A stretch of DNA of 63,959 nucleotides, counting the filler, from Reclinomonas americana ATCC 50394 (Eukaryota): the NCBI GenBank assembly GCA_048213135.1. It is 9 parts of 2 records of this genome, joined end to end, with 100 filler letters (N's around TTAATTAATTAA, not from the genome) between each part and the next. Parts side by side here need not be neighbours in the genome. Positions count along the whole stretch, not along the records: positions 24,982 to 51,293 come from PS015360.1; 8 more parts are not named here. One strand, 5' to 3'. The translations under genes were made by a program, and so were the position numbers. The notes under the pieces were generated by a model that was not told the origin of the DNA, searched no databases, and was given only the letters and a program-made list of their open reading frames with translations. This document shows positions 9,937-35,600 of the stretch, one piece after another. Within the stretch, counting starts at the first letter, position 1. Each line of letters starts with the position of its first letter.

Positions 9937-12012
9937 ATGCGCGTTGTGGCCGCCACTGTGTTGCTGCTGGTGCTGCTGCTCGCGGCATTAGTCTGCGCAG
10001 ATGACACTGTCAACTTGCCCGGGTTCCACTTTGTTCCACTTCCGCACGGGTGGATGAATGATCCCAAGTGCGTCGGTCATGCTCTGCTTTCCCGCGCGCT
10101 CTCTCTTCACAGCCAGCCCGCATATTAACGCTCTCTCTCTCTTTCTTGCTCAGCGGGCCATTCTACGATCCGTCGACGCAGTTGTATCATCTCATGTACC
10201 AGTACTTGACGCCACGCACGTGGGGCCATGCTGTCTCTGTCGACTTGCTGCACTGGAAGCAGCTGCCGATTGCGCTCGTCAACGACGAGTGGTACGACGA
10301 AGGCGGCGTGTTCTCCGGCAGCGCCACTCTCCTCGACGATGGCACTCCCGTGCTCAGCTACTCGGTCTCCACCAATGACATGCAGGTTTGTATTGTTCCG
10401 ACCGATTATGTGGGCGACAAGACAGCTGCTCATGTCGCACAAAAAAACAACAACACAGTGTCTGGCGGCGCCGACCAATCGTTCCGATCCGTACCTGGTG
10501 TGGTGGACGAAGAACGACGAGAATCCGGTGATCTCGACCAAGACCGGGGCGCCGCCGGGTCGCGATGATACCACCGCGTGGAAGAGTGCCGACGGCAAGA
10601 CGTGGCGCATGGCGTATGGCTATCAGCCGGATGCCTCCTCCGGCGCCGCCATTGTGTTCACCTCCACCGATTTTCAGACGTGGACCAAGGCCGGGGATTT
10701 GCACGTGTCGCACACCACCGGCATGTGGGAGTGCCCAGGTGAGAAACGCCCAAAAGACACGCGCTTCTCCTCTTCATTCATTGCTCTTTCCTCGCGTGTT
10801 GGTGAATGAGCAGCGAGAGAGTTGGAGTTTGCGCGAATAGAGTGGTGATTGAGCTCACTCACGTTCACAGACTTCTTCCCCATCCCATACGCCTCTTCCA
10901 ATTCGACGGCGCGGGTGACGCACCTGCTGAAGGCCTCGACCATGGGCAAGGACTACTGGGTCTCCGGCACCTACGACGACTCGCGCATCGCCTTTACGCC
11001 GCACGATACCGCCACCGACATGGGCACCCGCACGCAGCTGTACGACGCCGGCGCCTTTTACGCCAGCAAGACGTTCCGCGATCCGAGCACGGATCCGCCG
11101 AGCCAGGTGCTGTGGGGTTGGGTGCCGGAGGAGCGCAGCGTGGACGCCAATGGCTCCCCGTACGGCTGGGCCTCGGTCATGTCGCTGCCGCGCCTGGTGG
11201 TGCTCGACGACGACGGCGTGCGCATCCGCACTCCGCCACACCCGCGCCTCTCCACGCTGCGCGTGCAGTCGTCGTACTACCGAATCTCGAACTTGCTGGT
11301 GCCTCGTAGCACCGTCAAGTGGGTGCCGGTGCACGGCGACCAACTGGAGCTGCGCCTGGAGATCGCCCTCACCAGCGGCACCGCCATTGAGTGCGGCATG
11401 CTGGTGCGTGCATCGTCCGACGGGCGGGAACAGACGCTGGTCGGCGTCTCCATGGTCGACACGTCGTACATGAACGCCACCGACCTGCCGGGCCTCGACT
11501 ACAACGTCACGCCCGTGTCGTACACCGACCCGCGTCTGTGCCAGCAGGCCTGCCAGGCCGACTCGCGCTGCGCAGCGTGGACCTACGTGCTGCCAGTGCC
11601 CGGCCAGGAGCGGCGCTGCTGCCTGAAGAGCGCCGTGCCGGCCGAGGTGTCGGAGAGCTTTTGCGTCTCCGGCATCAAGAATGGCGGCGTGGAGATGAGC
11701 GTCTTCGGCGACACCACCAAGTCGTCGCTGAACAGCAGCGACGGACATGCATCGTCCGTCGTTCGCTCCCCCCTGCCGCCTCGCACTGGCCTCGGCAGCA
11801 CCGTGTCACTGCATGTGTTTGTCGATCACAGCGTGGTGGAGACGTTCATCAATGAGGGACAGGCGGCCGTCACCCGTCGCGTGTATCCCACTCTGGCCGC
11901 GTCCACCGGCGTGGCACTTTACGCGGGCGCACAGTCCGACTGCCGCGTTGTCAACTTTGAGTCGTGGGCCGTGGCCAGCGCGCCTGTCACGGTCATGGAG
12001 GGGTTCGAGTGA
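9937..12012 (+). CDS. Secreted glycoside hydrolase family 32 (beta-fructofuranosidase/fructanase) with a PAN/Apple domain insertion
   Basis: Signal peptide [70 protein letters not shown]; 3 introns. Confidence 0.93.
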
Positions 12013-22021: not shown

Positions 22022-24881
22022 ATGTCTAGTCGCAGTGAGTAACATGCACACGCGCGTGTGTGTTGTCAGAAAAGTGACTCACACCCGTTGATCAGATGCG
22101 TGGCGACGGGCTCCTGGCGACGACGACGACGATGATGATCGCGGTCGCGATATCGAGGCGTCGAGAGCGATCGAGCAGCGGACGCCCATCACCATGATGA
22201 CATCGCCCAGAGCGCCTGACTACTTGCTCAGCGATGTCGATGACACACCAACACCAGCAGAAGCAACAGCAGCAGCGCCTGCCTATGTGAATGAGGTGAA
22301 GAGAGGGTGTTTGATTCCTCTTGTTGCACCACTTGTTTTGATCAAGCGGTCTCACTCTCTCCCACGTAGCGCTTCTTGCCGTACCGCGTTCCGGGAAGTC
22401 GCGACACGGTGGTCCGACCGTCGCTGCCACTGTTGGAGCAGCGGTCGTCGAGCTCCTCGGCACTTGTCTTTAGCGCGCTGCCGATGGTGGGCGACGATGG
22501 GGCGCAGCCGCGAGTGCAGAGCGCACGCGGTAGGGCAGTTGAAAAGGAAGGCGTGCGCGGAGAGGCGGCAGCGTCGGAGGTGTTGGAGGGCGATGTGGGC
22601 GGGGATGAGGTGGAGAGCGGTCGTGGATGGCGACAGAACAAGCCGGTGCAGTTGGCGCCGGTGACAGCGCTGTCGTCAGAACCCGACATCATGTCGGCTT
22701 CGGTGCAATCCAAGTCGTTCTTCACGGCACGCATGCTCGGCAACGACGCGAGCAGCAGCGACGGTGTGCCCACCCAAGCCGCACGGCGCACCCATGCGGG
22801 TATTCGTGACCCCGACGACACCGACAATGACGACGCCGAGACGTCGGAGATGGATCTGGACTCGGCGCGAGGCAGTCAGACGCACCAGAAGAGCGAGTTG
22901 CGCCGCTTTTCTCGTTTTCCGTGTGCCTTTACTCTCTCTCTCTCTCTCGCTTACACACACGCACACAGTCACAGCAATCACGGGCAATCCACGATTGTCG
23001 TGCTCGGCAAGTCCACTGGCAGCAAGCACGGCGACGATGAGGATGGAATGCTGCCAGAAGCCGAAGAGGAGGAGAGTTTCGAGGACGAGGAAGGTGGCGA
23101 CGATGATGGAGACGGCGACGACGACGATGGCGACGACGGGAAGAAGGCCGACGATTCCGACGAAAGCGACGAAGACAGTGACGATGAGGAGGACCGCGGC
23201 TGGTTTGGCGCTCCCAACGGAGCACCGTTTGTGATGCGACAAGTGTCACGTTTCCGCATTCTGTGGGATGTGTGGATGCTGCTGGTGGCCTTCTACCTCG
23301 TGACGTTTGTGCCGGCGATCATTTGCTTCGGGGTGCAAAACACAACCGTGGTACTCAGTGCCAACGCCGTGGTCGACTTCTTCCTGTGGGCCGACATGCT
23401 CGTTGAGTGTTTCACGGCCTACGAGGACGACGGGGTGTCGGTGATTGACCGCAAGCTGATTCGGCGAAGATACTTGCGGGGCTGGTTCACGGTGGACCTG
23501 ATCAGTGCGCTACCGTTTGAGGTTATTGCGGCCGGCGTCAGCATCTCGCGACCTGGTATCTTCCGTCTCAACAGATTAGCGCGCCTGGCGCATGTGCCCT
23601 CGTACTTTACGCTGTGGGAGACCGAAACGAGTGTCAACACGAGTCTGCTGCGCATCCTCAGGTTCGTGCTGTACGTGTTGTACATTATGCACTTGCTGGC
23701 GTGCGTGTGGTTCCTCGTGGTGGCGCTGGAGTACGAAGCAGGCGAGCTCCACAACTCCTACGTGTTCTCGATGACAATCGTGACCGCGCCACTGCGATAT
23801 CAGTACATGCAGGCGTTTTTCTGGGCGCTGGCCTCCATGACTGGCTACGGCAACACGCTGCCAATCAGTAACGTGGAGCTCATGACCACCATTGTGGTGT
23901 CGATTATCGGCACCTCGCTCTTCGTCATCACCATCGGCGTCGTCAGCTCGCTGCTGAGCAACATGGATGCGGCCAATCAGGCCTTCCGTAGCAAGGTCGA
24001 AAACATCGACCGCTTCATGACGTACCGCCGCGTGCCACCGCACTTGCAAAAGACCGTCAAGCACTACTACAGCTACTTGTGGAACTCGCGACGAGTTGCG
24101 TGCGCGCTCTGCGGGTGGGTGAATTTTATCGAAACTGACGCTGTGTTTTATCCGTGCAGGGTGTCGACGAGCGTGAAATGCTGCAGGACTTGCCCGAGTA
24201 CCTGCGCACCGAGTTGGTGTTTGAGGTGTGTCACTTTACTTTCCATTCCTTTTGTACTTCTGTGACTGCCGCCGACCACTTTGACAGATCAACAAGGAGA
24301 TCATCACGGCAGTCCCGTTCTTCGCCAAGTGCCAGGCGGCATTCATCGAGCGCCTGGTGGTGCGCCTCCGCCCGCGTGTAGTCCTCCCGCACACCTACAT
24401 TGTGCGCAAGGGCGATTTTGGCAAGGAGATGTACTTTATCTCTCGCGGCGTGGTGCAAGTGGTCGGCGACAATGGCGAGGTGTACGCCACCATCAAGGAC
24501 TGGTTCGGCGAGATTGCGCTGCTGTTCAATATGCGGCGCACGGCCAATGTCAGGGTGCGTGTGTGCGCCGAACCGGCGAACAGGCTGGGCCACAAACTCA
24601 CTCACCTCCTCGTGCAGGCGGCGACATTTTGCGATATCTTTGTGCTGTCGCGCTCCGACTTTAACGATGTGATCAAGCTGTTCCCTGCCGAGGCCAAGAT
24701 CATGGAAGAGGTGGCAGAGGAGCGAAAGAAAGCCCTGGGCATCCAGGACGACGGTGAGACGACAGAAGCTAGAAGTGACATCTGTAATGACAATTTTGAC
24801 TTACACGAACTGCATGCAGCCTCGTCCATGCACAGTGGCGACGACACGGACGACCTCAACTCGACCGCCAGCTCATTCAGC
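22022..24881 (+). CDS. 6-TM cation channel with C-terminal cyclic-nucleotide-binding domain (KCNH/HCN/CNG-like); 3' truncated
   Basis: IRRRYLRGWF.VDLISALPF, S4 FRLNRLARL, pore GYG, C-linker, CNBD IVRKGDFGKEMYFISRG..FGEIALL...RRTANV; start position approximate. Confidence 0.92.
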
Positions 24882-24981
24882 NNNNNNNNNNNNNNNNNNN
24901 NNNNNNNNNNNNNNNNNNNNNNNNNTTAATTAATTAANNNNNNNNNNNNNNNNNNNNNNNNNNNNNNNNNNNNNNNNNNNN

Positions 24982-27103: not shown

Positions 27104-30100
27104 ATGCACGGTGTGCGCAAGTCAGATGGAGCAGCGCGTCAAGCTGCGGCTCGCGCCAAGATTGAGAACTATTGCACCTTGTCAGCGCGCAGTCTTGAGC
27201 TTGTGCGTGACATGCTCTTCTCTCTCTCTCTTTCACACACTCACTCACTCACTCTTGTCTGTTTGCGTGCGTGTGTGTGTAGCGCAAGGCCAATGCGCTG
27301 ACTGCGGAGAGCTTGGAGGTGACTGCGCAAACGCTGCTCATCAATCCGGATTATTACACATTGTGGAACTTTAGGCGCGATGTGCTCACGCACATGATTG
27401 ACAGCATGTTGCGTCTCTCTGCTCCTCTCTCAGTGTGTCTCTCTCTCGTGTGCATGGTTGCTCATATGTGGTGCATAAGGACTGATGAGAAGGAGGTTGT
27501 GGCGCTCAAGCAGCGCGAGTTGAGCTTCAACAAGGACGCGCTCAAGATCAATCCAAAGATCTACGCCATCTGGAATCACCGCAAGTGGGTGCGTTGCTCC
27601 ACCCTTTCCGCACAAGTCTCTCTCACACACATGCACGAATGAGGAGACGAGACAAGGCGGAGGAGAGCGAACACGTGGGATGTATTTCTGTAGCTGACAC
27701 ACGTTGCTTGTGTGGATCAGGTGGTGGAGAAGTTCCCGGCGTGTTGGGAACACGAGCTGTTCTTGTGCGAGCAGCTGCTGTCGCTGGATGAGCGGAATTG
27801 TTGAGTGTTTGTGGGCATCGACTTGTCTGGATGGAAGATGGATTCGTTGTTGACTGTGTACGTCGCGCCTGTCGCAGTCCACTGCTGGAACTATCGGCGA
27901 TATGTGTTGTCGCTGGCGGGAGTGCCGGCTGAGAAGGAGATCTTGTTTTCCAGGAAGAAGATTGACAAGGTGGGTGTGGGTGTTCAATCGTGGCTCTGTC
28001 TGTCGTTCAGCAGTTGTGCGAGACGCATGTTTAGGCCTACTAGTTTACTGGTAGAACCCTACGTTCCGAACGTAGTGGACCGCGTTCGATTCGCGGGTGG
28101 GCCTTTCCTTTTTGTTGAGCGTGCTCACTTTTTTTCTAATTGCTGGCTCGTCTCTTTGAAGTCTTCTGGTTGGTGTGCACGCGTTGTTTTCGTGTTGTGG
28201 TTAGAAGTGTATACGATAGTAGTAGAGTTCTTCTCTTCTGCCTCTCCTTCTTCGTGCGCCCCGCCCTTGATCTCCAGCAGAGGCTGTCGTGTCCTGTCAC
28301 CCCCCACCCCATTTGTACTATTTTTGACTTTTCATCATATCGACTCTCGATTCATCGCCTCCGTTGCCTTGCGTTCAACCCTACAGCATTCGCATACATC
28401 CTACCGTATGTCTTCTGCATGTTGGGTTCAGAGGTCGACGTATGCTTGCACGCTGGGTTTTCTGCCTGCATTGCATTTCTGAAAGATTTATTCCCATTCT
28501 CTCCCATTTCAAGAGTGCTCTTGTCGCCATACCATAGTGATAAGCAACACATGGCCTGCTAGTTTACTGGTAGAATCCTACGCTACGAACGTAGTGGACC
28601 GCGTTCGATTCGCGGGTGGGCCTTTCCTTTTTGTCGATTTGTCGTAACTTTTTCGTTGCATGTCTCCTTTTTTTCCGCGCACACATTCTTTCGTTCCGCA
28701 ACTGGATCATATGTTGCTGCAGGGGTGCTGAATGCTTCATATCTCTGTCTCCGCCTGCCTGTTCATCTCCGTTGACCTCTGCAGAAGTTGTCTTGTCCTG
28801 TAACCCTGCTCGGACTATTTTGATATCCTTCTTGTCGACACTTGATTTGTGGTTTCCTTTGCCTTTCGCTGGACCCGATGTTGACTGCGTGTTGGGTTCA
28901 GAGGTCATATGCTCGCGTTCTGGCTATCGTGTGTTGCATTTCCTGTCATTGCATATTTCCACACTTTGCGTCTCGCTGTCAAGAATGCTTTTGTTGCCTA
29001 CCATATTGATGTACGGAAGCAACACATGGCCTGCTAGTTTACTGGTAGAATCCTACGTTCGGGACGTAGGGAACCGCGTTCGATTCGCGGGTGGGCCTTT
29101 CTTCTTTTTTCTTTTGTGCCTCTAATGTTACTTTGTGTCGTTTACCTTTTGCTCACCACTGATCTGTACTCGCCTGTTGCATGCTGCATGCAGCATCTCT
29201 GTTCCTACTCCACCCTTCGCTGTCTCTTCCGTTGCATGCTGTCGCTTCTTGTCGTATTGTCGTGTCCTTGCACCTCCCAACCCTACGTTGTCCTATTTTT
29301 GACCATTTCAACACGACACGCACACTCGTTCCTCGGTCGCTCTCTTGTATCCACCCCTGGTGTCCGTGTTGTATAGACGCGCGTAGCAGCGCGCATTAGA
29401 GTACTTGCTGAAGCGACGCAATGACACAGCGTGTATGACGTCTGCATTGCAGTCGGTGCAGCACATTCCTTTCCGTTCTCTCTCTTTGCCTCGCTGTCTC
29501 AACCACCCCCTCGTCACTTGTTGGAAGGGTTAGCAGAAGCACATGACATGGCCTACTAGTTTACTGGTAGAACCCTACGCTTCGAACGTAGTGGACCGCG
29601 TTCGATTCGCGGGTGGGCCTTTCCTTTTTGTTGATTTGTGATCATTTTTTTCGTCGACAGTCTTCTTTTTGCCGCGCACACATTCTTTCGTTCCGCAACT
29701 GGTTCGTGTTGCTGCATGAGTGCTGAATGCTTCGCCTCTCTCCCTGTATCTCTCTGTGCCTGCGTGCCCATCTCCGTTTACCTGTGCAGAGTGCTCGTAC
29801 TATTTGATATCCTTCATGTCGACTCTTGATTCGTGGTTTTCTTTGCCTGTCGTTGGGCCCTGTGTTTACGATCTGTCTTGCATCATCTGCGTGTTGGGAT
29901 CAGAGGCCGCATGCTCGCATTCTGGCTATCGTGTGTTGCCTTTCCTGCCGATGCATTTTCCTCTCAGGCATCTCTCTGTCAAGAATGCTCTTGCTGCCTT
30001 ACCTTAGTGATTCACGGAAGCAACACATGGCCTGCTAGTTTACTGGTAGAATCCTACGTTAGGGACGTAGGGAACCGCGTTCGATTCGCGGGTGGGCCTT

Positions 30101-32522
30101 TCTTCTTTTTTCCTTTTGTGCCGATCTATTTTGCCAGCTCATCGCTGATCTGCACGCACTTGCTGCTTGCTGCATGCAGCATATCCTTTCCTACTCCACC
30201 CTGCCCTCTCCCTGCCGTTCTCATTCCACCCTGCCCTCTCCCTGCCGTTGCATGCTGTCGCTTCTTGTCGTATTGTCGTGTCCTTGCACCTCCCAACCCT
30301 ACGATGTCCTATTTTTGACCATTTTCAACACGTCTCGCACACTCGTTCCTCGCTCGCCATCTTCGTATCAACCCTTGGCATCTCTGTTGTATATACGCGC
30401 GTAGCAGCGCGCATTAGAGTACTTGCTGAAACGCAGCGATGGCGCAGCGTGCATGACGTCTGCCTTGCATCCGGTGCACGTGCAATTCCTTACCTTTCTC
30501 TCCCTCGGTCTCGCTATCTCAACCACCCCCTCGTCACTTGTTGGAAGAGTTAGCAGAAGCACATGACATGGCCTGCTAGTTTACTGGTAGAATCCTACGT
30601 TCGGGACGTAGGGAACCGCGTTCGATTCGCGGGCGGGCCCTTGAACGCTTCCTTTTTTTGTGTTTCTTTTTTTATTGACTCATGTGTGCTGTCTCCTCCC
30701 CGCAGAACTTCTCCAACTACTCGGCGTGGCACCACCGCAGCAATCTGCTGACGCAAATCATGGCCAGCAAGTCGACAGAGGAAAAGCGCCGCATGATCGG
30801 AGACGAGTTCGAGCTGGTGTCGCAGGCGTTTTTCACTGAGCCGGCCGATCAGAGTGCCTGGCTGTATCACCGCTGGCTTCTCGGCAAGGGTGCGTTCCAC
30901 CGAGTGCTCTGTTGCTCTTGCCGCCCTCTGAGAATTCCTTCGCCCCGCCCTCATTTTGCAGTGCCCTCGGAGCTGTTTGTGGAGAACGTGGCGCCGTCTA
31001 CGCTGGCAGGTGCACGGCAAGTGCTGTTGGCGTTCTCGACATTGGTACAGGTGCGGCTGTGCCCGGGAACTTGAACACTCCTTTGAGATGCTGAATCCCA
31101 CTGTAGGGAGTGTCGCCATCGACCGTGCTGCTGACGGCAGGCGGACACACTGTGGCAGTGACATGGACGCCCGTGTACGAGTCCACTCAGGCCGAGATCG
31201 ACCGCAGTCCGTTCGCCAGCGTGTGGCTCGGAGATGTGAGCGAAGAGGTGCCGTTGGGCGAGAGCGGTGAACTGGCAGTGCATGGAGACGGTATCGTTTC
31301 TGTGGATGGTGTGGCGCTGTCGCTGGGCGGCGTGTGCCGGTGGACTGCGGAGGGCATGGTGCTCTTGCCGCTTCTCAGCAAGGACGTTGTGGATCGGGCC
31401 GAGGAGGATCAAGGTGCTGCTGATGTCCCTTGATGATGGTGGTGGTGGTGGAGCTTCACAATTGTGTCTCATCACGAATGACATGTGTGTGTGTGCAGAG
31501 TTGCGCGCCTTGTCAGTGCTGGAAAAGGATATCGAGCTGTGTCGCGAGCTGCTGAGCGAGGAGGATGGGCTGAAATGTTGAGTGAGATGCCTTGGTCTTT
31601 GTCCCTCATCGCATTCTTTGCGTGGCTACCCTTCTCAATGCCACTGTCCACGCAACGCAGGGGCATCCATCACGCTGGCATTCTCGCTGCGCGAGCGTGA
31701 CTTGCAGATTGTTCGTCGTGAGCGACGCGTGAACCCTGCTCTTTCCGGTTCCGTACGCCCTCCTCCTCAGCTTCGTCATCGGTGTCGGTTCTCGTTGACA
31801 ATTGTGCGTGCGTGCCACAGAGAGCTCGGAGGACTCGCTTGCTTCCTCGCTGGAGGCCATCGAGCTCCTTGGTGGCCTCGCAGCCTCCGACAGCATGCAC
31901 ACACGTTACTATGACGATATGCGGAGCGACTACTCGCTGGAGCTGCGCACTCGCCATCCGTTCCCCAAGGACGCGGCTCCTCGCTCACAGGTGCACGCCG
32001 ACGACTGGACGCTGGACCTGTGTGGCCAGTGTTTCACGCGTGTGCGCCACTTGAATAGGTGTGGCGTCGTGCGCCTGCAGTCTTGCATATTGCGCACGCG
32101 CAAGTGCTAATGATTTCTGCAGGATGGTGCACATTCGCCACCTGGACTTGTCTCGCAATGCGCTCGTCTCGCTGGAGGGCATTCAGTTTTTGGCGCTGTT
32201 GGAGACTCTGATTGCCGACGACAACCAGTTGACGAATCTCGATGTGAGACTGTCGGCGCTGAAGCACTTGCGAGTGCTCTCCGTGGCCAACAATGGTGTG
32301 TGTGTGCGCCCACTTGTCCTTGTCGTGTCTGTGTGTGCGCTTGCTTGCACTCAACCGTGGTGTGCGTGTGCGCGCCGCGCAGCCATTGCGTTGTTGCCAA
32401 CCAACGCCGTGAGCGATGTGGTCACGGAGGTGCGCGGTGGCAACAATCCGGCCACCACCGCTGCTCTGCTGCGGACTGCTTTTCCGGCAGCCACGACGGT
32501 GGTGTGGGAGGTGACGGAATGA
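27104..32522 (+). CDS. RABGGTA: Rab geranylgeranyltransferase alpha subunit (prenyltransferase repeats, Ig-like region, LRR)
   Basis: MHGVRK start; INPDYYTLWNFRR, INPKIYAIWNHRKW, DERNFHCWNYRR, NFSNYSAWHHRS, AFFTEPADQSAWLYHRWLL, LRRs LDLSRNALVSL; many short introns plus one 2.7-kb intron. Confidence 0.93.
28034..28104 (+). tRNA. tRNA with anticodon CCG (nominal Arg), array copy 1
   Basis: GGCCTAC TA GTTT ACTGGTA GAAC C CTACG TT-CCG-AA CGTAG TGGA CCGCG TTCGATT CGCGG GTGGGCC T; A and B boxes; oligo-T terminator. Confidence 0.88.
28553..28623 (+). tRNA. tRNA with anticodon ACG (nominal Arg), array copy 2
   Basis: Same cloverleaf; loop CT-ACG-AA (anticodon 28585-28587); T5 terminator. Confidence 0.88.
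29028..29098 (+). tRNA. tRNA with anticodon CGG (nominal Pro), array copy 3
   Basis: Same cloverleaf; loop TT-CGG-GA (29060-29062); variable loop GGAA; T6 terminator. Confidence 0.88.
29550..29620 (+). tRNA. tRNA with anticodon TCG (nominal Arg), array copy 4
   Basis: Same cloverleaf; loop CT-TCG-AA (29582-29584); T5 terminator. Confidence 0.88.
30029..30099 (+). tRNA. tRNA with anticodon AGG (nominal Pro), array copy 5
   Basis: Same cloverleaf; loop TT-AGG-GA (30061-30063); T6 terminator. Confidence 0.88.
30570..30640 (+). tRNA. tRNA with anticodon CGG (nominal Pro), array copy 6; discriminator C
   Basis: Same cloverleaf; loop TT-CGG-GA (30602-30604); G6-C67 pair; T7 run 13 nt downstream. 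Confidence 0.88.
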
Positions 32523-32636: not shown

Positions 32637-35600
32637 TTAGCGCACAATGGAGTTGGGAATCGCCGGCTGTGTGCAGATACCGGCCGATGTCATCGCCGGG
32701 TTGCCGCGGAAGTTGCAGATGCCACTCTCGTCGGTCCGCAGGTCCTGCGCGAAGAGTAAGCCGTCAGGAACAACAACGAAGAGGGAGAGAGAGAAAAGAC
32801 GCAACTGCCAGAACCACTGGAATCTTCTTGGAGCTGAGGACCTTGTCGGGCGCTGCCTCAAAGCCGGCAAACGACACGCGCTCGCCGATGCGCGATCCCT
32901 CTGGCGGATTGATAAAGTCGACCTTGCTGTCGTCGGCACTGGCAGCGCACAGGACCATGGCCTCGCTCTTCACGTCGCGCAGCTTGGAGGGCTTCATGTT
33001 GCACACGACAAGAATGACACGGTCCTGCGATATGCCGGGCGACAGGTGAGGGAAACGGCACGCTGGGACACGCATCAGCCATGCACAACCAACCTGCATC
33101 CTGTCAATCGGGATGTGTTGCACGAGTCCACTGACCACCTGGCGCGGCTCCGCCTCACCCACGTCGATCCTTTCCACATACAGCCTGCCGACAACAAGAA
33201 AGATGAACAATGACCGCGATATCGATCGTGCTTCTGACAGAAACACAGAGACAACGTACCGATCGGCCGTCGGGTGACGCTCCACATGCACAATGCGACC
33301 GACGCGAATGTCAAACGCCGAAATGTCTTCCAGATCCACCTTGGGTGGTGGAGGTGGAGCCTTCGTCTTTTCCTTCTTCTCCTTCTTCTCTGTCCGCTTG
33401 CCAGCGGCGGCCGGGGGTGCAGATTCCGCTGCCGCAGCCGCAGATTCAGAGGCAACAGATTCCGCGGCGGCTTCCGACTTCTGTGATGCCGGTGGCGGTG
33501 GTGGTGGTGCGCCACTGCCAGACGCTCCCCCCGAGGCGTCGGCGAATTCCAGCGGCGCCTCTCCAATGCTGCGACGGTACTCGTTGTGCGCCTCCAGCTG
33601 CTTCTCCCACTGCTTCTGCAACCTCTTCTGCGCGGCCTTGGCCACCGGCTTGCCGTCCTTGTCGACGGTTGGCAGACCCCTCTCGTCCCAGGCCGAGTAC
33701 TCCGCGTCCCTGAACATGTCCAGCGGCGACTTCTTTGCCGCCTCCAGTTTCAACGCTGTGAACGGGCGCAACGTCGGCGACAGAATGCGCCAGAGAAATC
33801 CGGCCAACAACAACAACAACGAACCCTGCGCAGCCTCACGCTCCAACCGGCGCTTCTCCTTATCCGCTTCCCGTGCAGCCTCCGCAGCGCGCTTCTCTTC
33901 CAACTCCTGCTGCAAAACCTCCGGCTTCTCAAACTTCCATGCACTCTTGCCGTCGGGGCGGTCCTCCAGACGCACACCAAGAGGAATCAAGGTGGTGTCA
34001 CGGATATCGTCAGTCATGCGCAAAATCACTTGGTAATCTGCGACGAGCGAGCAAGTGCGTGAGCGAGTGAGAGACACAAGAACAGCCATAAGTTCTCCCC
34101 CCACGCTCGTCAATCCCAACACACCTGCTTTTTGACGAGCCGCCGTGCGCACTTGCTCGCGGAAATCGGCGAGCACGTTGAGGTACGGTGCGATGCGGTC
34201 CTCCGCCTGTCAGCAAGAGACGTTGGTCAGTGCATGGCCATCGAATCAATAAACGAAGAGGCGTCTNNNNNNNNNNNNNNNNNNNNNNNNNNNNNNNNNN
34301 NNNNNNNNNNNNNNNNNNNNNNNNNNNNNNNNNNNNNNNNNNNNNNNNNNNNNNNNNNNNNNNNNNNNNNNNNNNNNNNNNNNNNNNNNNNNNNNNNNNN
34401 NNNNNNNNNNNNNNNNNNNNNNNNNNNNNNNNNNNNNNNNNNNNNNNNNNNNNNNNNNNNNNNNNNNNNNNNNNNNNNNNNNNNNNNNNNNNNNNNNNNN
34501 NNNNNNNNNNNNNNNNNNNNNNNNNNNNNNNNNNNNNNNNNNNNNNNNNNNNNNNNNNNNNNNNNNNNNNNNNNNNNNNNNNNNNNNNNNNNNNNNNNNN
34601 NNNNNNNNNNNNNNNNNNNNNNNNNNNNNNNNNNNNNNNNNNNNNNNNNNNNNNNNNNNNNNNNNNNNNNNNNNNNNNNNNNNNNNNNNNNNNNNNNNNN
34701 NNNNNNNNNNNNNNNNNNNNNNNNNNNNNNNNNNNNNNNNNNNNNNNNNNNNNNNNNNNNNNNNNNNNNNNNNNNNNNNNNNNNNNNNNNNNNNNNNNNN
34801 NNNNNNNNNNNNNNNNNNNNNNNNNNNNNNNNNNNNNNNNNNNNNNNNNNNNNNNNNNNNNNNNNNNNNNNNNNNNNNNNNNNNNNNNNNNNNNNNNNNN
34901 NNNNNNNNNNNNNNNNNNNNNNNNNNNNNNNNNNNNNNNNNNNNNNNNNNNNNNNNNNNNNNNNNNNNNNNNNNNNNNNNNNNNNNNNNNNNNNNNNNNN
35001 NNNNNNNNNNNNNNNNNNNNNNNNNNNNNNNNNNNNNNNNNNNNNNNNNNNNNNNNNNNNNNNNNNNNNNNNNNNNNNNNNNNNNNNNNNNNNNNNNNNN
35101 NNNNNNNNNNNNNNNNNNNNNNNNNNNNNNNNNNNNNNNNNNNNNNNNNNNNNNNNNNNNNNNNNNNNNNNNNNNNNNNNNNNNNNGGGAGAGCATTGGT
35201 CAGTGGCCGAACACGGTTCTTTGCTTTCTCGTCGAGCGCGACGCAACGTGGCCATGGCCGAGCACTCAATGTGCCAACCGGGGCGACCGCGTCCCCACGG
35301 CGAGTCCCACGCTGGCTCGCCAATCTTTGAGGCCTTCCACAGCGCAAAATCGGCCGCCGTCTTCTTCTCCGACACACCACCGCACAGCGAACCTGCCAGC
35401 GAAGAGGACGACAAAATGTCAGGAGAGACCACGCACGCATCAGCGATTGACAGACTGGACGGACTGACCCTCGCCCTCAGCCATCAGCTCCAGATCATTG
35501 TGGCGCTCTGGTGCGAGCTTGGGATGCTCGTGGCCGGCAGCGAGGTAGGCAGTGGTGTCAAAGTACACCGAACCAGTGGCGCTGGCGTACGCAAAGCCAT

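What the first reader, a model, noticed from the sequence alone, without database searches (positions are those of the whole stretch)
28034..28104. The shared tRNA body does not look like tRNA-Arg or tRNA-Pro
Seen: 4-nt variable loop, U13.G22 D-stem, 7-nt D-loop ACUGGUA with C15 and U20, A at position 48 (a C15/A48 Levitt position instead of G15:C48 or A15:U48), G1-C72/G2-C71/C3-G70, and U73 in five copies (C73 in copy 6). Established: cytosolic Arg and Pro tRNAs usually have 5-nt variable loops; A20 is a common Arg determinant; C73 is typical of eukaryotic Pro; U73 occurs in Gln, Cys and Thr; 4-nt variable loops typify His/Gln/Gly/Glu/Asp. Inference: the scaffold may derive from a Gln- or His-type tRNA (all anticodons keep G36, and TCG/CCG are one change from Gln TTG/CTG). 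Copy 6 may be the most Pro-adapted.
Basis: partly seen in the sequence, partly recalled or inferred. Interest (0 to 1): 0.7.

Follow-up and report, generated by a model that had tools for sequence, protein, structure and literature searches.

The report
One tRNA scaffold serving arginine and proline
Six neighbouring tRNA genes inside one intron of a eukaryotic gene share almost the same body but carry three arginine and two proline anticodons, a natural case of tRNA genes changing amino-acid identity by one anticodon letter; where the shared body came from could not be settled here.

Summary
28034-28104 is copy 1 of six 71-nt tRNA genes (28034-30640, + strand) with one body and the anticodons Arg-CCG, Arg-ACG, Pro-CGG, Arg-UCG, Pro-AGG, Pro-CGG. 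Every listed feature is present: 4-nt variable loop, U13.G22, 7-nt D-loop with C15 and U20, A48, G1-C72/G2-C71/C3-G70, and U73 in five copies against C73 in copy 6.

New here:
- Only 10 of 71 positions vary. Positions 35, 37, 44 and 46 split perfectly by amino acid.
- Bodies are far better conserved than their homologous flanks.
- The array lies inside one intron of a Rab geranylgeranyltransferase alpha-like gene.
- It is built from a roughly 1-kb Arg+Pro unit. Copy 2 is a Pro-5'/Arg-3' recombinant, and copy 6 is a Pro body behind an Arg-type flank.

Best reading: a working tandem family diversified by iso- and alloacceptor anticodon shifts and kept uniform by recombination. Identity is set by nucleotide 35, because eukaryotic ArgRS and ProRS read mainly the anticodon.

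The Gln/His-origin idea could not be tested. No genome, relatives or eukaryotic comparison tRNAs were reachable. U20 does not exclude Arg, and the His marks listed for eukaryotes are not met.

The parts
28034..28104 (+). c1, tRNA with anticodon CCG (Arg). Has A6-U67, G10-C25, U32, A37, variable loop UGGA and U73. A T5 run follows.
   Evidence: RF00005 52.9 bits
28553..28623 (+). c2, tRNA with anticodon ACG (Arg). Recombinant copy: Pro-type 5' flank and 5' part (G6.U67, G10.U25), then Arg-type from C32 onward (A37, UGGA) with an Arg-type 3' flank.
   Evidence: 47.1 bits. Upstream 40 nt is 88-91% identical to c3/c5 and 56% to c4. Downstream 150 nt is 72% identical to c4 and 43-48% to c3/c5.
29028..29098 (+). 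c3, tRNA with anticodon CGG (Pro). Has G6.U67, G10.U25, U32, G37, variable loop GGAA and U73.
   Evidence: 44.3 bits
29550..29620 (+). c4, tRNA with anticodon UCG (Arg). Has A6-U67, G10-C25, C32, A37, UGGA and U73.
   Evidence: 54.9 bits
30029..30099 (+). c5, tRNA with anticodon AGG (Pro). Differs from c3 only at position 34.
   Evidence: 43.1 bits
30570..30640 (+). c6, tRNA with anticodon CGG (Pro). Pro-type body behind an Arg-type 5' flank. The only copy with G6-C67 and C73.
   Evidence: 45.6 bits. Upstream 40 nt is 98% identical to c4.
28105..28552 (+). Spacer A' (c1 to c2), a diverged copy of the A spacer.
   Evidence: family D8; (first 40 nt 69% to those after c2/c4; last 150 nt 68-69% to those before c3/c5)
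28624..29027 (+). Spacer A1 (c2 to c3), homologous to spacer A2.
   Evidence: families D6, D7, D9, D10, D12, D13 (76-95%)
29099..29549 (+). Spacer B1 (c3 to c4), homologous to spacer B2.
   Evidence: families D3, D4, D5, D11 (81-92%)
29621..30028 (+). Spacer A2 (c4 to c5).
30100..30569 (+). Spacer B2 (c5 to c6).
27970..30705 (+). Intron of about 2.7 kb (GT...AG, phase 0) of the host gene. It contains the whole array.
   Evidence: the exon ends ...SRKKIDK at 27969 and the next exon starts NFSNYSAWHHRSNLL at 30706.
27283..27969 (+). Upstream exons of the host gene, with prenyltransferase alpha-subunit repeats.
   Evidence: PF01239 PPTA, E 3.6e-18 on 27283-27639. The last short exon alone gave no Pfam hit.
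30706..30888 (+). Downstream exon of the host gene, with two PPTA repeats.
   Evidence: PF01239, E 8.3e-14

Best explanation
This is a working family of six nuclear, RNA polymerase III-type tRNA genes. It grew by tandem duplication inside one intron, and a single 71-nt scaffold was diversified in two ways. Changes at position 34 are isoacceptor shifts (CCG/ACG/UCG and CGG/AGG). The change at position 35 is an alloacceptor shift: C35 gives Arg and G35 gives Pro.

The amino acid is set by nucleotide 35, with G36 shared by all copies, because eukaryotic ArgRS and ProRS read mainly the anticodon. The Pro copies also carry G37 and a GGAA variable loop, where the Arg copies carry A37 and UGGA. I infer that G37 becomes m1G37 and keeps the reading frame on CCN codons.

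The common body lets Arg and Pro genes recombine by unequal crossing-over or gene conversion. c2 and c6 are such products. This recombination keeps the body uniform across the two identities.

Shown: the genes, the shared body, the isotype-linked positions, conservation above the flanks, the unit structure and the recombinant copies.

Inferred: expression, charging according to the anticodon, and the role of positions 37, 44 and 46.

The direction of the shift is unresolved. I lean towards a Pro-type ancestor.
For: 1. Six intact cloverleaf tRNAs score 43-55 bits on RF00005 against a gathering score of 29. Each is followed by a run of 5-7 T within 20 nt. None encodes CCA.
2. Only 10 of 71 positions vary. 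The three that lie in stems keep pairing: 6-67 runs A-U, G.U, G-C, and 10-25 is G-C or G.U. No position varies in the D-loop, the anticodon stem or the T-arm.
3. Bodies are much better conserved than homologous flanks. c3/c5 match at 70/71 against 82% and 86% in 200-nt flanks (Fisher p 8e-5 and 1e-3). c2/c4 match at 68/71 against 72% downstream (p 4e-6).
4. Positions 35, 37, 44 and 46 co-vary perfectly with isotype in 6 of 6 copies.
5. The wobble bases are A, C and U, never G. A34 occurs in both boxes, which I recall as the eukaryotic sparing pattern.
6. Unit structure and recombinants are shown. Upstream flanks group as {c2, c3, c5} and {c4, c6}. Downstream flanks group as {c1, c2, c4} and {c3, c5}.
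7. Literature supports anticodon-driven identity. C35 and then G/U36 are the prominent yeast Arg determinants, and position 73 is not needed. [quoted passage not shown] Position 35 is the commonest site of eukaryotic alloacceptor shifts (PMC3923123 passage).
8. Demand fits. In 1,146 codons from four Pfam-supported stretches, 62 of 70 Arg codons are CGN. CCG is the commonest Pro codon, at 20 of 45.
Against: - There are no expression or charging data. No sequencing run was reachable.
- The six copies are paralogues in one array. The perfect link of 35 with 37, 44 and 46 may rest on only two or three independent events, and the sites lie within 12 nt of each other.
- Conservation above the flanks could come partly from gene conversion and not from selection.
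- If this organism's cytosolic ArgRS needs A20, as reported for plants and mammals, the U20 Arg copies would be poor substrates.
- U73 in c3 and c5 departs from the eukaryal Pro discriminator C73.
- The C15/A48 combination is not a standard R15:Y48 Levitt pair (describes the standard form).
- In yeast, a tRNA-Arg(CCG) mutated to CGG is still arginylated almost optimally in vivo (PMC4742068 passages). Charging by anticodon is therefore not guaranteed for c3 and c6.
- c4 and c6 occupy the same slot but differ at 10 of 71 positions. That is no better than their upstream flank (85%; p 0.54).
Confidence: 0.62

Rival explanations
1. Third-isotype origin. The scaffold descends from a tRNA of another amino acid that has a 4-nt variable loop: Gln, or also Asp, Gly, Glu or His. 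Both the Arg and the Pro genes would then be remolded derivatives. For Gln the path would run through G36-keeping anticodon steps, YUG to YCG to YGG.
For: - The body has a 4-nt variable loop, U13.G22, and U73 in 5 of 6 copies. That these typify eukaryotic Gln is my recollection and was not tested.
- G10.U25, found in 4 of 6 copies, is a listed eukaryal Asp determinant.
- There is a precedent for a nuclear Arg tRNA built on another isotype's body. Yeast tRNA-Arg(CCG) is described as a cryptic tRNA-Asp (PMC9976931 passage; PMC4742068 passage citing Fender 2004).
- Weak lead: the 17-18-nt D-arm word matched 17 prokaryotic or viral places. Its only tRNA matches (3 of 17) were two bacterial tRNA-Gly(UCC) and one phage tRNA-Trp.
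Against: - No tRNA-Gln, His, Asp or Gly from this organism or any eukaryote could be compared.
- The His marks listed for Eukarya (G-1, A73) do not fit U73 or C73.
- The Asp discriminator G73 does not fit either.
- c6 carries the complete eukaryal Pro set, and G1-C72 is eukaryal-Pro-like.
- The D-arm word matches are prokaryotic, and 14 of 17 were not in tRNAs at all.
Confidence: 0.2
2. Ambiguous or mistranslating copies. The CGG-anticodon genes (c3, c6) keep an Arg-competent body and are charged at least partly with arginine, so CCG codons would be read ambiguously. Alternatively, some copies are tolerated near-neutral by-products of recombination and not needed genes.
For: - Yeast ArgRS arginylates a CGG-anticodon version of tRNA-Arg(CCG) almost optimally in vivo, by sliding recognition of the C34-G35 dinucleotide (PMC4742068 passages).
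- c3 and c6 differ from the Arg copy c2 at only 6 and 8 positions.
Against: - c5 has AGG, with no C to slide.
- All three G35 copies carry G37 and the GGAA loop, and c6 adds C73.
- c3 and c5 stay 70/71 identical while their flanks have diverged to 82-86%.
- Standing Pro-to-Arg mistranslation at the commonest Pro codon would be costly. This last point is inference.
Confidence: 0.1
3. Assembly artefact or dead repeat. The array would be a mis-assembled or decaying tRNA-derived repeat without function.
For: - Tandem repeats are prone to assembly error.
- No reads could be laid on the region to check it.
Against: - The spacers are clearly diverged (72-86% between homologous spacers, with many gaps) and each copy has its own flank combination. 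The copies are therefore distinct loci and not a collapsed or inflated repeat.
- All six keep a full cloverleaf, box-B-like T-arm and a T-run terminator.
- Every stem change is compensated or is a wobble pair.
Confidence: 0.05

Closest known systems
Alloacceptor anticodon shifts in eukaryotic nuclear genomes, also called tRNA gene recruitment or remolding (Rogers and Griffiths-Jones 2014, PMC3923123; passages seen)
   Same: - Near-identical tRNA bodies carry anticodons of different amino acids.
- The change is at the middle base 35, the commonest site in that survey.
- The switch crosses synthetase classes (ArgRS class I, ProRS class II), as did 17 of their 30 cases.
- Extra-anticodon sites co-vary with the anticodon.
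   Different: - Here one scaffold in one tandem array carries five anticodons of two codon boxes, with both iso- and alloacceptor shifts.
- Two copies are recombinants between the two identities.
- Direction cannot be set because no orthologues are available.
- The passages I saw do not mention an Arg/Pro pair. I did not see their tables.
Yeast minor tRNA-Arg(CCG), a 'remnant aspartate acceptor' (Fender et al. 2004, paper not held; known to me through PMC9976931 and PMC4742068 passages)
   Same: A nuclear CGN-reading Arg tRNA sits on a body that is not the usual Arg type. ArgRS accepts it through C35 and G36, and positions 20 and 73 matter little.
   Different: That case is a single gene related to Asp. 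Here there is a multi-copy array shared with Pro, and the donor isotype is unknown.
Alloacceptor tRNA remolding in metazoan mitochondria (PMC4783518; search listing and abstract start only)
   Same: Duplication of a tRNA gene followed by an anticodon change that alters identity.
   Different: That is organellar and usually involves loss of the original gene. Here the genes are nuclear and both identities persist side by side.
Cytosolic tRNA-Arg without A20 in fungi and diatoms (Igloi 2022, PMC8975779; abstract and whole Results read)
   Same: Nuclear tRNA-Arg genes with U at position 20.
   Different: The window (57% G+C, many short introns) does not look like a diatom or fungal genome to me, which is a judgement from recall, and its lineage is unknown. 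Whether its ArgRS ignores position 20 is untested.

Membership tests
Canonical elongator tRNA (Rfam RF00005) | Score at or above the gathering threshold with a full-length cloverleaf | tested here: met
   6 of 6 copies score 43.1-54.9 bits against 29, covering model positions 1-71
Canonical elongator tRNA (Rfam RF00005) | Standard R15:Y48 Levitt pair | tested here: not met
   C15 and A48 in 6 of 6 copies. The standard form is described.
Eukaryal cytosolic tRNA-Pro | G35 and G36 | tested here: met
   c3, c5 and c6. Determinants are listed in Table 1 of PMC9976931.
Eukaryal cytosolic tRNA-Pro | C73 discriminator and G1-C72 | tested here: inconclusive
   G1-C72 is present in all copies. C73 is present only in c6, and c3 and c5 have U73. 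Human ProRS relies mainly on the anticodon branch.
Eukaryal cytosolic tRNA-Pro | Body similar to the lineage's other tRNA-Pro genes | not testable with these tools
   No genome is held and no relatives were found
tRNA-Arg (CGN readers) | C35 and G36 | tested here: met
   c1, c2 and c4
tRNA-Arg (CGN readers) | A20 in the D-loop | tested here: not met
   U20 in all copies. A20 is not required in yeast and is absent from diatom cytosolic tRNA-Arg.
tRNA-Arg (CGN readers) | A38, listed as a eukaryal determinant | tested here: met
   A38 in 6 of 6 copies (Table 1)
Alloacceptor anticodon shift / remolding | Genes of common descent with anticodons of different amino acids | tested here: met
   Bodies are 86-99% identical, with homologous flanks and spacers
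Alloacceptor anticodon shift / remolding | Direction shown by orthologues or synteny in related species | not testable with these tools
   No related genome was reachable
Alloacceptor anticodon shift / remolding | Both forms functional (expressed and charged) | not testable with these tools
   Only indirect evidence: conservation above the flanks and compensated stems
   No tRNA-Gln is available. The U73, 4-nt loop and U13.G22 resemblance rests on recall.
   U73 or C73 in all copies, and base -1 is T or A. The eukaryal His set is listed.

The most novel reading that the evidence does not exclude
This single, atypical scaffold (4-nt variable loop, C15/A48, U20, U73) may have replaced both the canonical CGN-arginine and the canonical CCN-proline tRNA families of this organism. 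One recombining intronic array would then supply the decoders for most of two codon boxes. The scaffold would have been captured from a third isotype, and the CGG copies would sit on the edge between Arg and Pro identity.
Probability: 0.12. Interest if true: 0.8.

Novelty: new variant of a known kind. Interest (0 to 1): 0.5.

Why it matters
Identity switches of nuclear tRNA genes are usually inferred one gene at a time. Here one array shows several stages side by side:
- wobble-base diversification
- a class I to class II identity switch at base 35
- the few linked body changes at positions 37, 44 and 46
- recombinant genes that mix the two identities

This gives a small, concrete set of natural variants for testing which nucleotides separate Arg from Pro identity on a common body. 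It also bears on whether recombination between genes of different identity can keep their bodies uniform. If this scaffold proves to be the organism's only source of these decoders, it would be a nuclear case of whole-family replacement.

Tried and rejected
- Whole genome: none is held. An anticodon-masked tree and a comparison with this organism's Gln, His, Gly, Asp, Pro and Arg genes were therefore impossible.
- D-arm word scans: a 17-nt word gave 10 viral loci and an 18-nt word gave 7 prokaryotic loci. Only 3 of the 17 lie in tRNA genes: one phage tRNA-Trp and two Izemoplasmatales tRNA-Gly(UCC). The other 14 are chance matches. None says anything about eukaryotes.
- Eukaryotic comparison tRNAs: the control genomes of the genome search are all prokaryotic. 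I did not build isotype models from prokaryotic tRNAs, because a cross-domain score would not answer the question.
- Sequencing runs: none was listed and no RNA holder was listed, so no reads could be laid.
- Lineage: three protein searches gave no close relative. The tRNA-binding-domain ORF reached at best 41% identity among 35 hits. The WD40 ORF gave only generic repeats. The GH32 ORF gave 13 hits at 26-43%. The organism remains an unidentified intron-rich eukaryote with 57% G+C.
- Earlier scan notes: nothing for this genome or sequence. Notes on anticodon shifts in other genomes did not bear on this case.
- Papers not held: Marck and Grosjean 2002 and Fender 2004.
- Considered and rejected: a tRNA-derived SINE. 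The copies are full tRNAs in a head-to-tail 1-kb unit, each with its own T-run.
- Considered and rejected: an organellar or bacterial origin. Pro-AGG, the absence of encoded CCA and the location in a spliceosomal intron all argue against it.
Full report
**What is there**

ARAGORN finds six tRNA genes on the + strand between 28033 and 30640.

| Copy | Coordinates | Anticodon |
|---|---|---|
| c1 | 28033-28105 | Arg-CCG |
| c2 | 28553-28623 | Arg-ACG |
| c3 | 29028-29098 | Pro-CGG |
| c4 | 29550-29620 | Arg-UCG |
| c5 | 30029-30099 | Pro-AGG |
| c6 | 30570-30640 | Pro-CGG |

The finding's coordinates, 28034-28104, are exactly the 71-nt Rfam match for c1. ARAGORN adds one base on each side of it. 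All six pass RF00005: 54.9, 52.9, 47.1, 45.6, 44.3 and 43.1 bits against a gathering score of 29. The whole-window run listed only 2 of 6, and a 2.9-kb run listed 4 of 6. c3 and c5 appeared only in 151-nt searches, which I attribute to the speed filters. blastn of c1 and c6 against the window finds only these six copies. Everything else is 19 nt or shorter.

**Check of the listed features**

Parsed as a cloverleaf, every copy reads:
- a 7-bp acceptor stem starting G1-C72, G2-C71, C3-G70
- U8 A9
- D-stem GUUU/GAA(C or U), with U13.G22
- a 7-nt D-loop ACUGGUA, giving C15 and U20 with position 17 absent
- C26
- anticodon stem CUACG/CGUAG
- a 4-nt variable loop, so position 48 is A
- T-arm CCGCG-UUCGAUU-CGCGG
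- U73 in c1-c5 and C73 in c6

The body is not fully identical. 10 of 71 positions vary: 6, 25, 32, 34, 35, 37, 44, 46, 67 and 73. The three stem positions keep pairing: 6-67 is A-U in c1 and c4, G.U in c2, c3 and c5, and G-C in c6, while 10-25 is G-C or G.U. Positions 35, 37, 44 and 46 split perfectly by amino acid. The Arg copies have C35, A37, U44 and G46. The Pro copies have G35, G37, G44 and A46.

**Context**

The window is eukaryotic nuclear DNA with 57% G+C and many short GT-AG introns. The array sits inside one intron, 27970-30705, of a gene with prenyltransferase alpha-subunit repeats on both sides:
- PF01239, E 3.6e-18, on 27283-27639
- PF01239, E 8.3e-14, on 30706-88

The exon before the intron ends ...SRKKIDK and the next begins NFSNYSAWHHRSNLL. 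The leucine-rich-repeat-like tail further on makes it look like the Rab geranylgeranyltransferase alpha type. That judgement is mine, from recall of the animal protein. Each tRNA is followed by a run of 5-7 T, and none encodes CCA. These are the expected signs of separate polymerase III genes.

**Architecture and history**

The repeat analysis and flank alignments show a unit of about 1 kb: Arg gene, spacer A, Pro gene, spacer B. Spacer A follows c1 (diverged), c2 and c4. Spacer B follows c3 and c5.

| Flank | Groups | Identity | Odd one out |
|---|---|---|---|
| Upstream | {c2, c3, c5} | 85-91% over 40 nt | c1 unique |
| Upstream | {c4, c6} | 98% over 40 nt, 85% over 150 nt | |
| Downstream | {c1, c2, c4} | 68-69% over 40 nt; c2/c4 72% over 150 nt | c6 unique |
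| Downstream | {c3, c5} | 68% over 150 nt | |

Unrelated pairs give 34-48%.

Two copies break the pattern.
- c2 has the 'before-Pro' flank and the Pro-type states G6 and U25. From C32 onward it has the Arg-type states (A37, U44, G46) and the 'after-Arg' flank. It looks like the product of an unequal crossover between a Pro gene and an Arg gene, with the exchange inside the identical stretch 26-31.
- c6 has the 'before-Arg' flank (98% to c4's) but is Pro-type from position 6 on.

The shared body is therefore a substrate for recombination between genes of different identity, and that recombination would keep it shared.

**Signs of constraint**

c3 and c5 differ at 1 of 71 body positions, while their 200-nt flanks are 82% and 86% identical with many gaps (Fisher p 8e-5 and 1e-3). 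c2 and c4 differ at 3 of 71 against 72% downstream (p 4e-6). No change hits the D-loop, the T-arm or the anticodon stem.

One result points the other way. c4 and c6 occupy the same slot but differ at 10 of 71 positions, which is no better than their upstream flank (p 0.54). This is expected if c6 took over a Pro body. Gene conversion could also produce part of the apparent conservation.

In 1,146 codons from four Pfam-supported stretches, 62 of 70 Arg codons are CGN. CCG is the commonest Pro codon (20 of 45), which matches the two CGG copies. Some of those stretches are stop-to-stop frames and may include non-coding ends.

**How it most likely works**

The identity literature makes an Arg/Pro switch at base 35 plausible.
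- In yeast, C35 followed by G36 or U36 are the prominent Arg determinants. Position 20 is marginal and position 73 is not needed.
- For eukaryal Pro the listed determinants are C73, G35 and G36. [quoted passage not shown]

(PMC9976931 passages and Table 1; PMC4742068 passages.)

Position 35 is also the commonest site of eukaryotic alloacceptor shifts (PMC3923123 passage). I therefore read the C35 copies as Arg acceptors and the G35 copies as Pro acceptors. G37 in the Pro copies probably serves as the m1G37 site. That last point is inference from general knowledge, supported only loosely by the review's remark that G37 methylation contributes to E. coli proline identity.

One caveat is real. 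Yeast ArgRS still arginylates a CGG-anticodon version of tRNA-Arg(CCG) almost optimally in vivo, by sliding onto C34-G35. c3 and c6 could therefore be partly ambiguous. c5 (AGG) cannot be read that way.

The claim that the body lacks usual Arg and Pro marks holds in part. The Arg copies have U20 where A20 is the listed determinant, five copies have U73 where eukaryal Pro has C73, and C15/A48 is not a standard Levitt pair. The 4-nt variable loop is unusual for both, by my recollection.

These marks are weak evidence on origin.
- U20 or C20 is the rule for cytosolic tRNA-Arg in fungi and diatoms (PMC8975779).
- Position 73 is not an Arg determinant in Eukarya.
- c6 carries the full eukaryal Pro set, and G1-C72 is the eukaryal Pro orientation.
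- I also recall that animal and plant tRNA-Pro have a 7-nt D-loop and G10.U25, like four of these copies. This is recall and not a test.

A His-type origin fits badly, because the eukaryal His set is G-1 and A73.

A Gln-type origin remains possible, since U73, the 4-nt loop and U13.G22 are Gln-like by recall. So do Asp- or Gly-type origins. G10.U25 is a listed Asp determinant, and yeast tRNA-Arg(CCG) is a known Asp-derived precedent.

Deciding among these needs the organism's other tRNAs, and I could not reach them. My split on origin is:
- Pro-type ancestor, about 0.4
- third isotype, about 0.2
- Arg-type ancestor, about 0.15
- the rest undecided

**Comparison and novelty**

The phenomenon belongs to the known class of alloacceptor anticodon shifts or tRNA remolding. 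The unusual part is the packaging:
- one scaffold with five anticodons covering most of two codon boxes
- a switch between a class I and a class II synthetase
- a tandem array inside an intron
- two copies that are recombinants between the two identities

I rate it a new variant of a known kind. The passages I saw in PMC3923123 do not mention an Arg/Pro pair, but I did not see its tables. I have not searched the literature specifically for Arg/Pro arrays beyond, so I make no claim that it is unreported.

**Verdict**

Interest is moderate. It would rise sharply if a genome-wide scan showed that this scaffold is the organism's only source of CGN and CCN decoders.

Noticed in passing
window 27970-30705: The whole six-gene tRNA array lies inside a single phase-0 intron of about 2.7 kb. 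The host is a prenyltransferase alpha-subunit (Rab GGTase alpha-like) gene on the same strand.
   Followed up: partly
window 28553-28623 and 30570-30640: c2 is a Pro-5'/Arg-3' recombinant tRNA gene with the exchange between positions 25 and 32. c6 is a Pro-type body behind an Arg-type upstream flank. Together they indicate recombination between tRNA genes of different identity.
   Followed up: yes
window 32767-34209 (- strand): A frame with a tRNA-binding domain (PF01588, E 1.1e-20; Arc1p/EMAP-like) lies about 2 kb downstream of the tRNA array. Its best database relatives are only about 40% identical. The proximity may be coincidence.
   Followed up: no
window 10210-12009 (+ strand): A glycosyl hydrolase family 32 frame has a PAN_4 domain (PF14295, E 1.9e-12) inserted within the C-terminal domain region. 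No close relative was found among longer proteins (13 hits, 26-43% identity).
   Followed up: partly
window 28034-30640, position 32 of each tRNA: Position 32 is C in the ACG and UCG Arg copies but U in the CCG Arg copy and in all Pro copies. This may be anticodon-specific tuning of the 32-38 pair.
   Followed up: no
window 22370-24926 (+ strand): An ion-transport domain frame (PF00520) is followed by a cyclic-nucleotide-binding frame (PF00027). This looks like a cyclic-nucleotide-gated or HCN-like channel gene.
   Followed up: no
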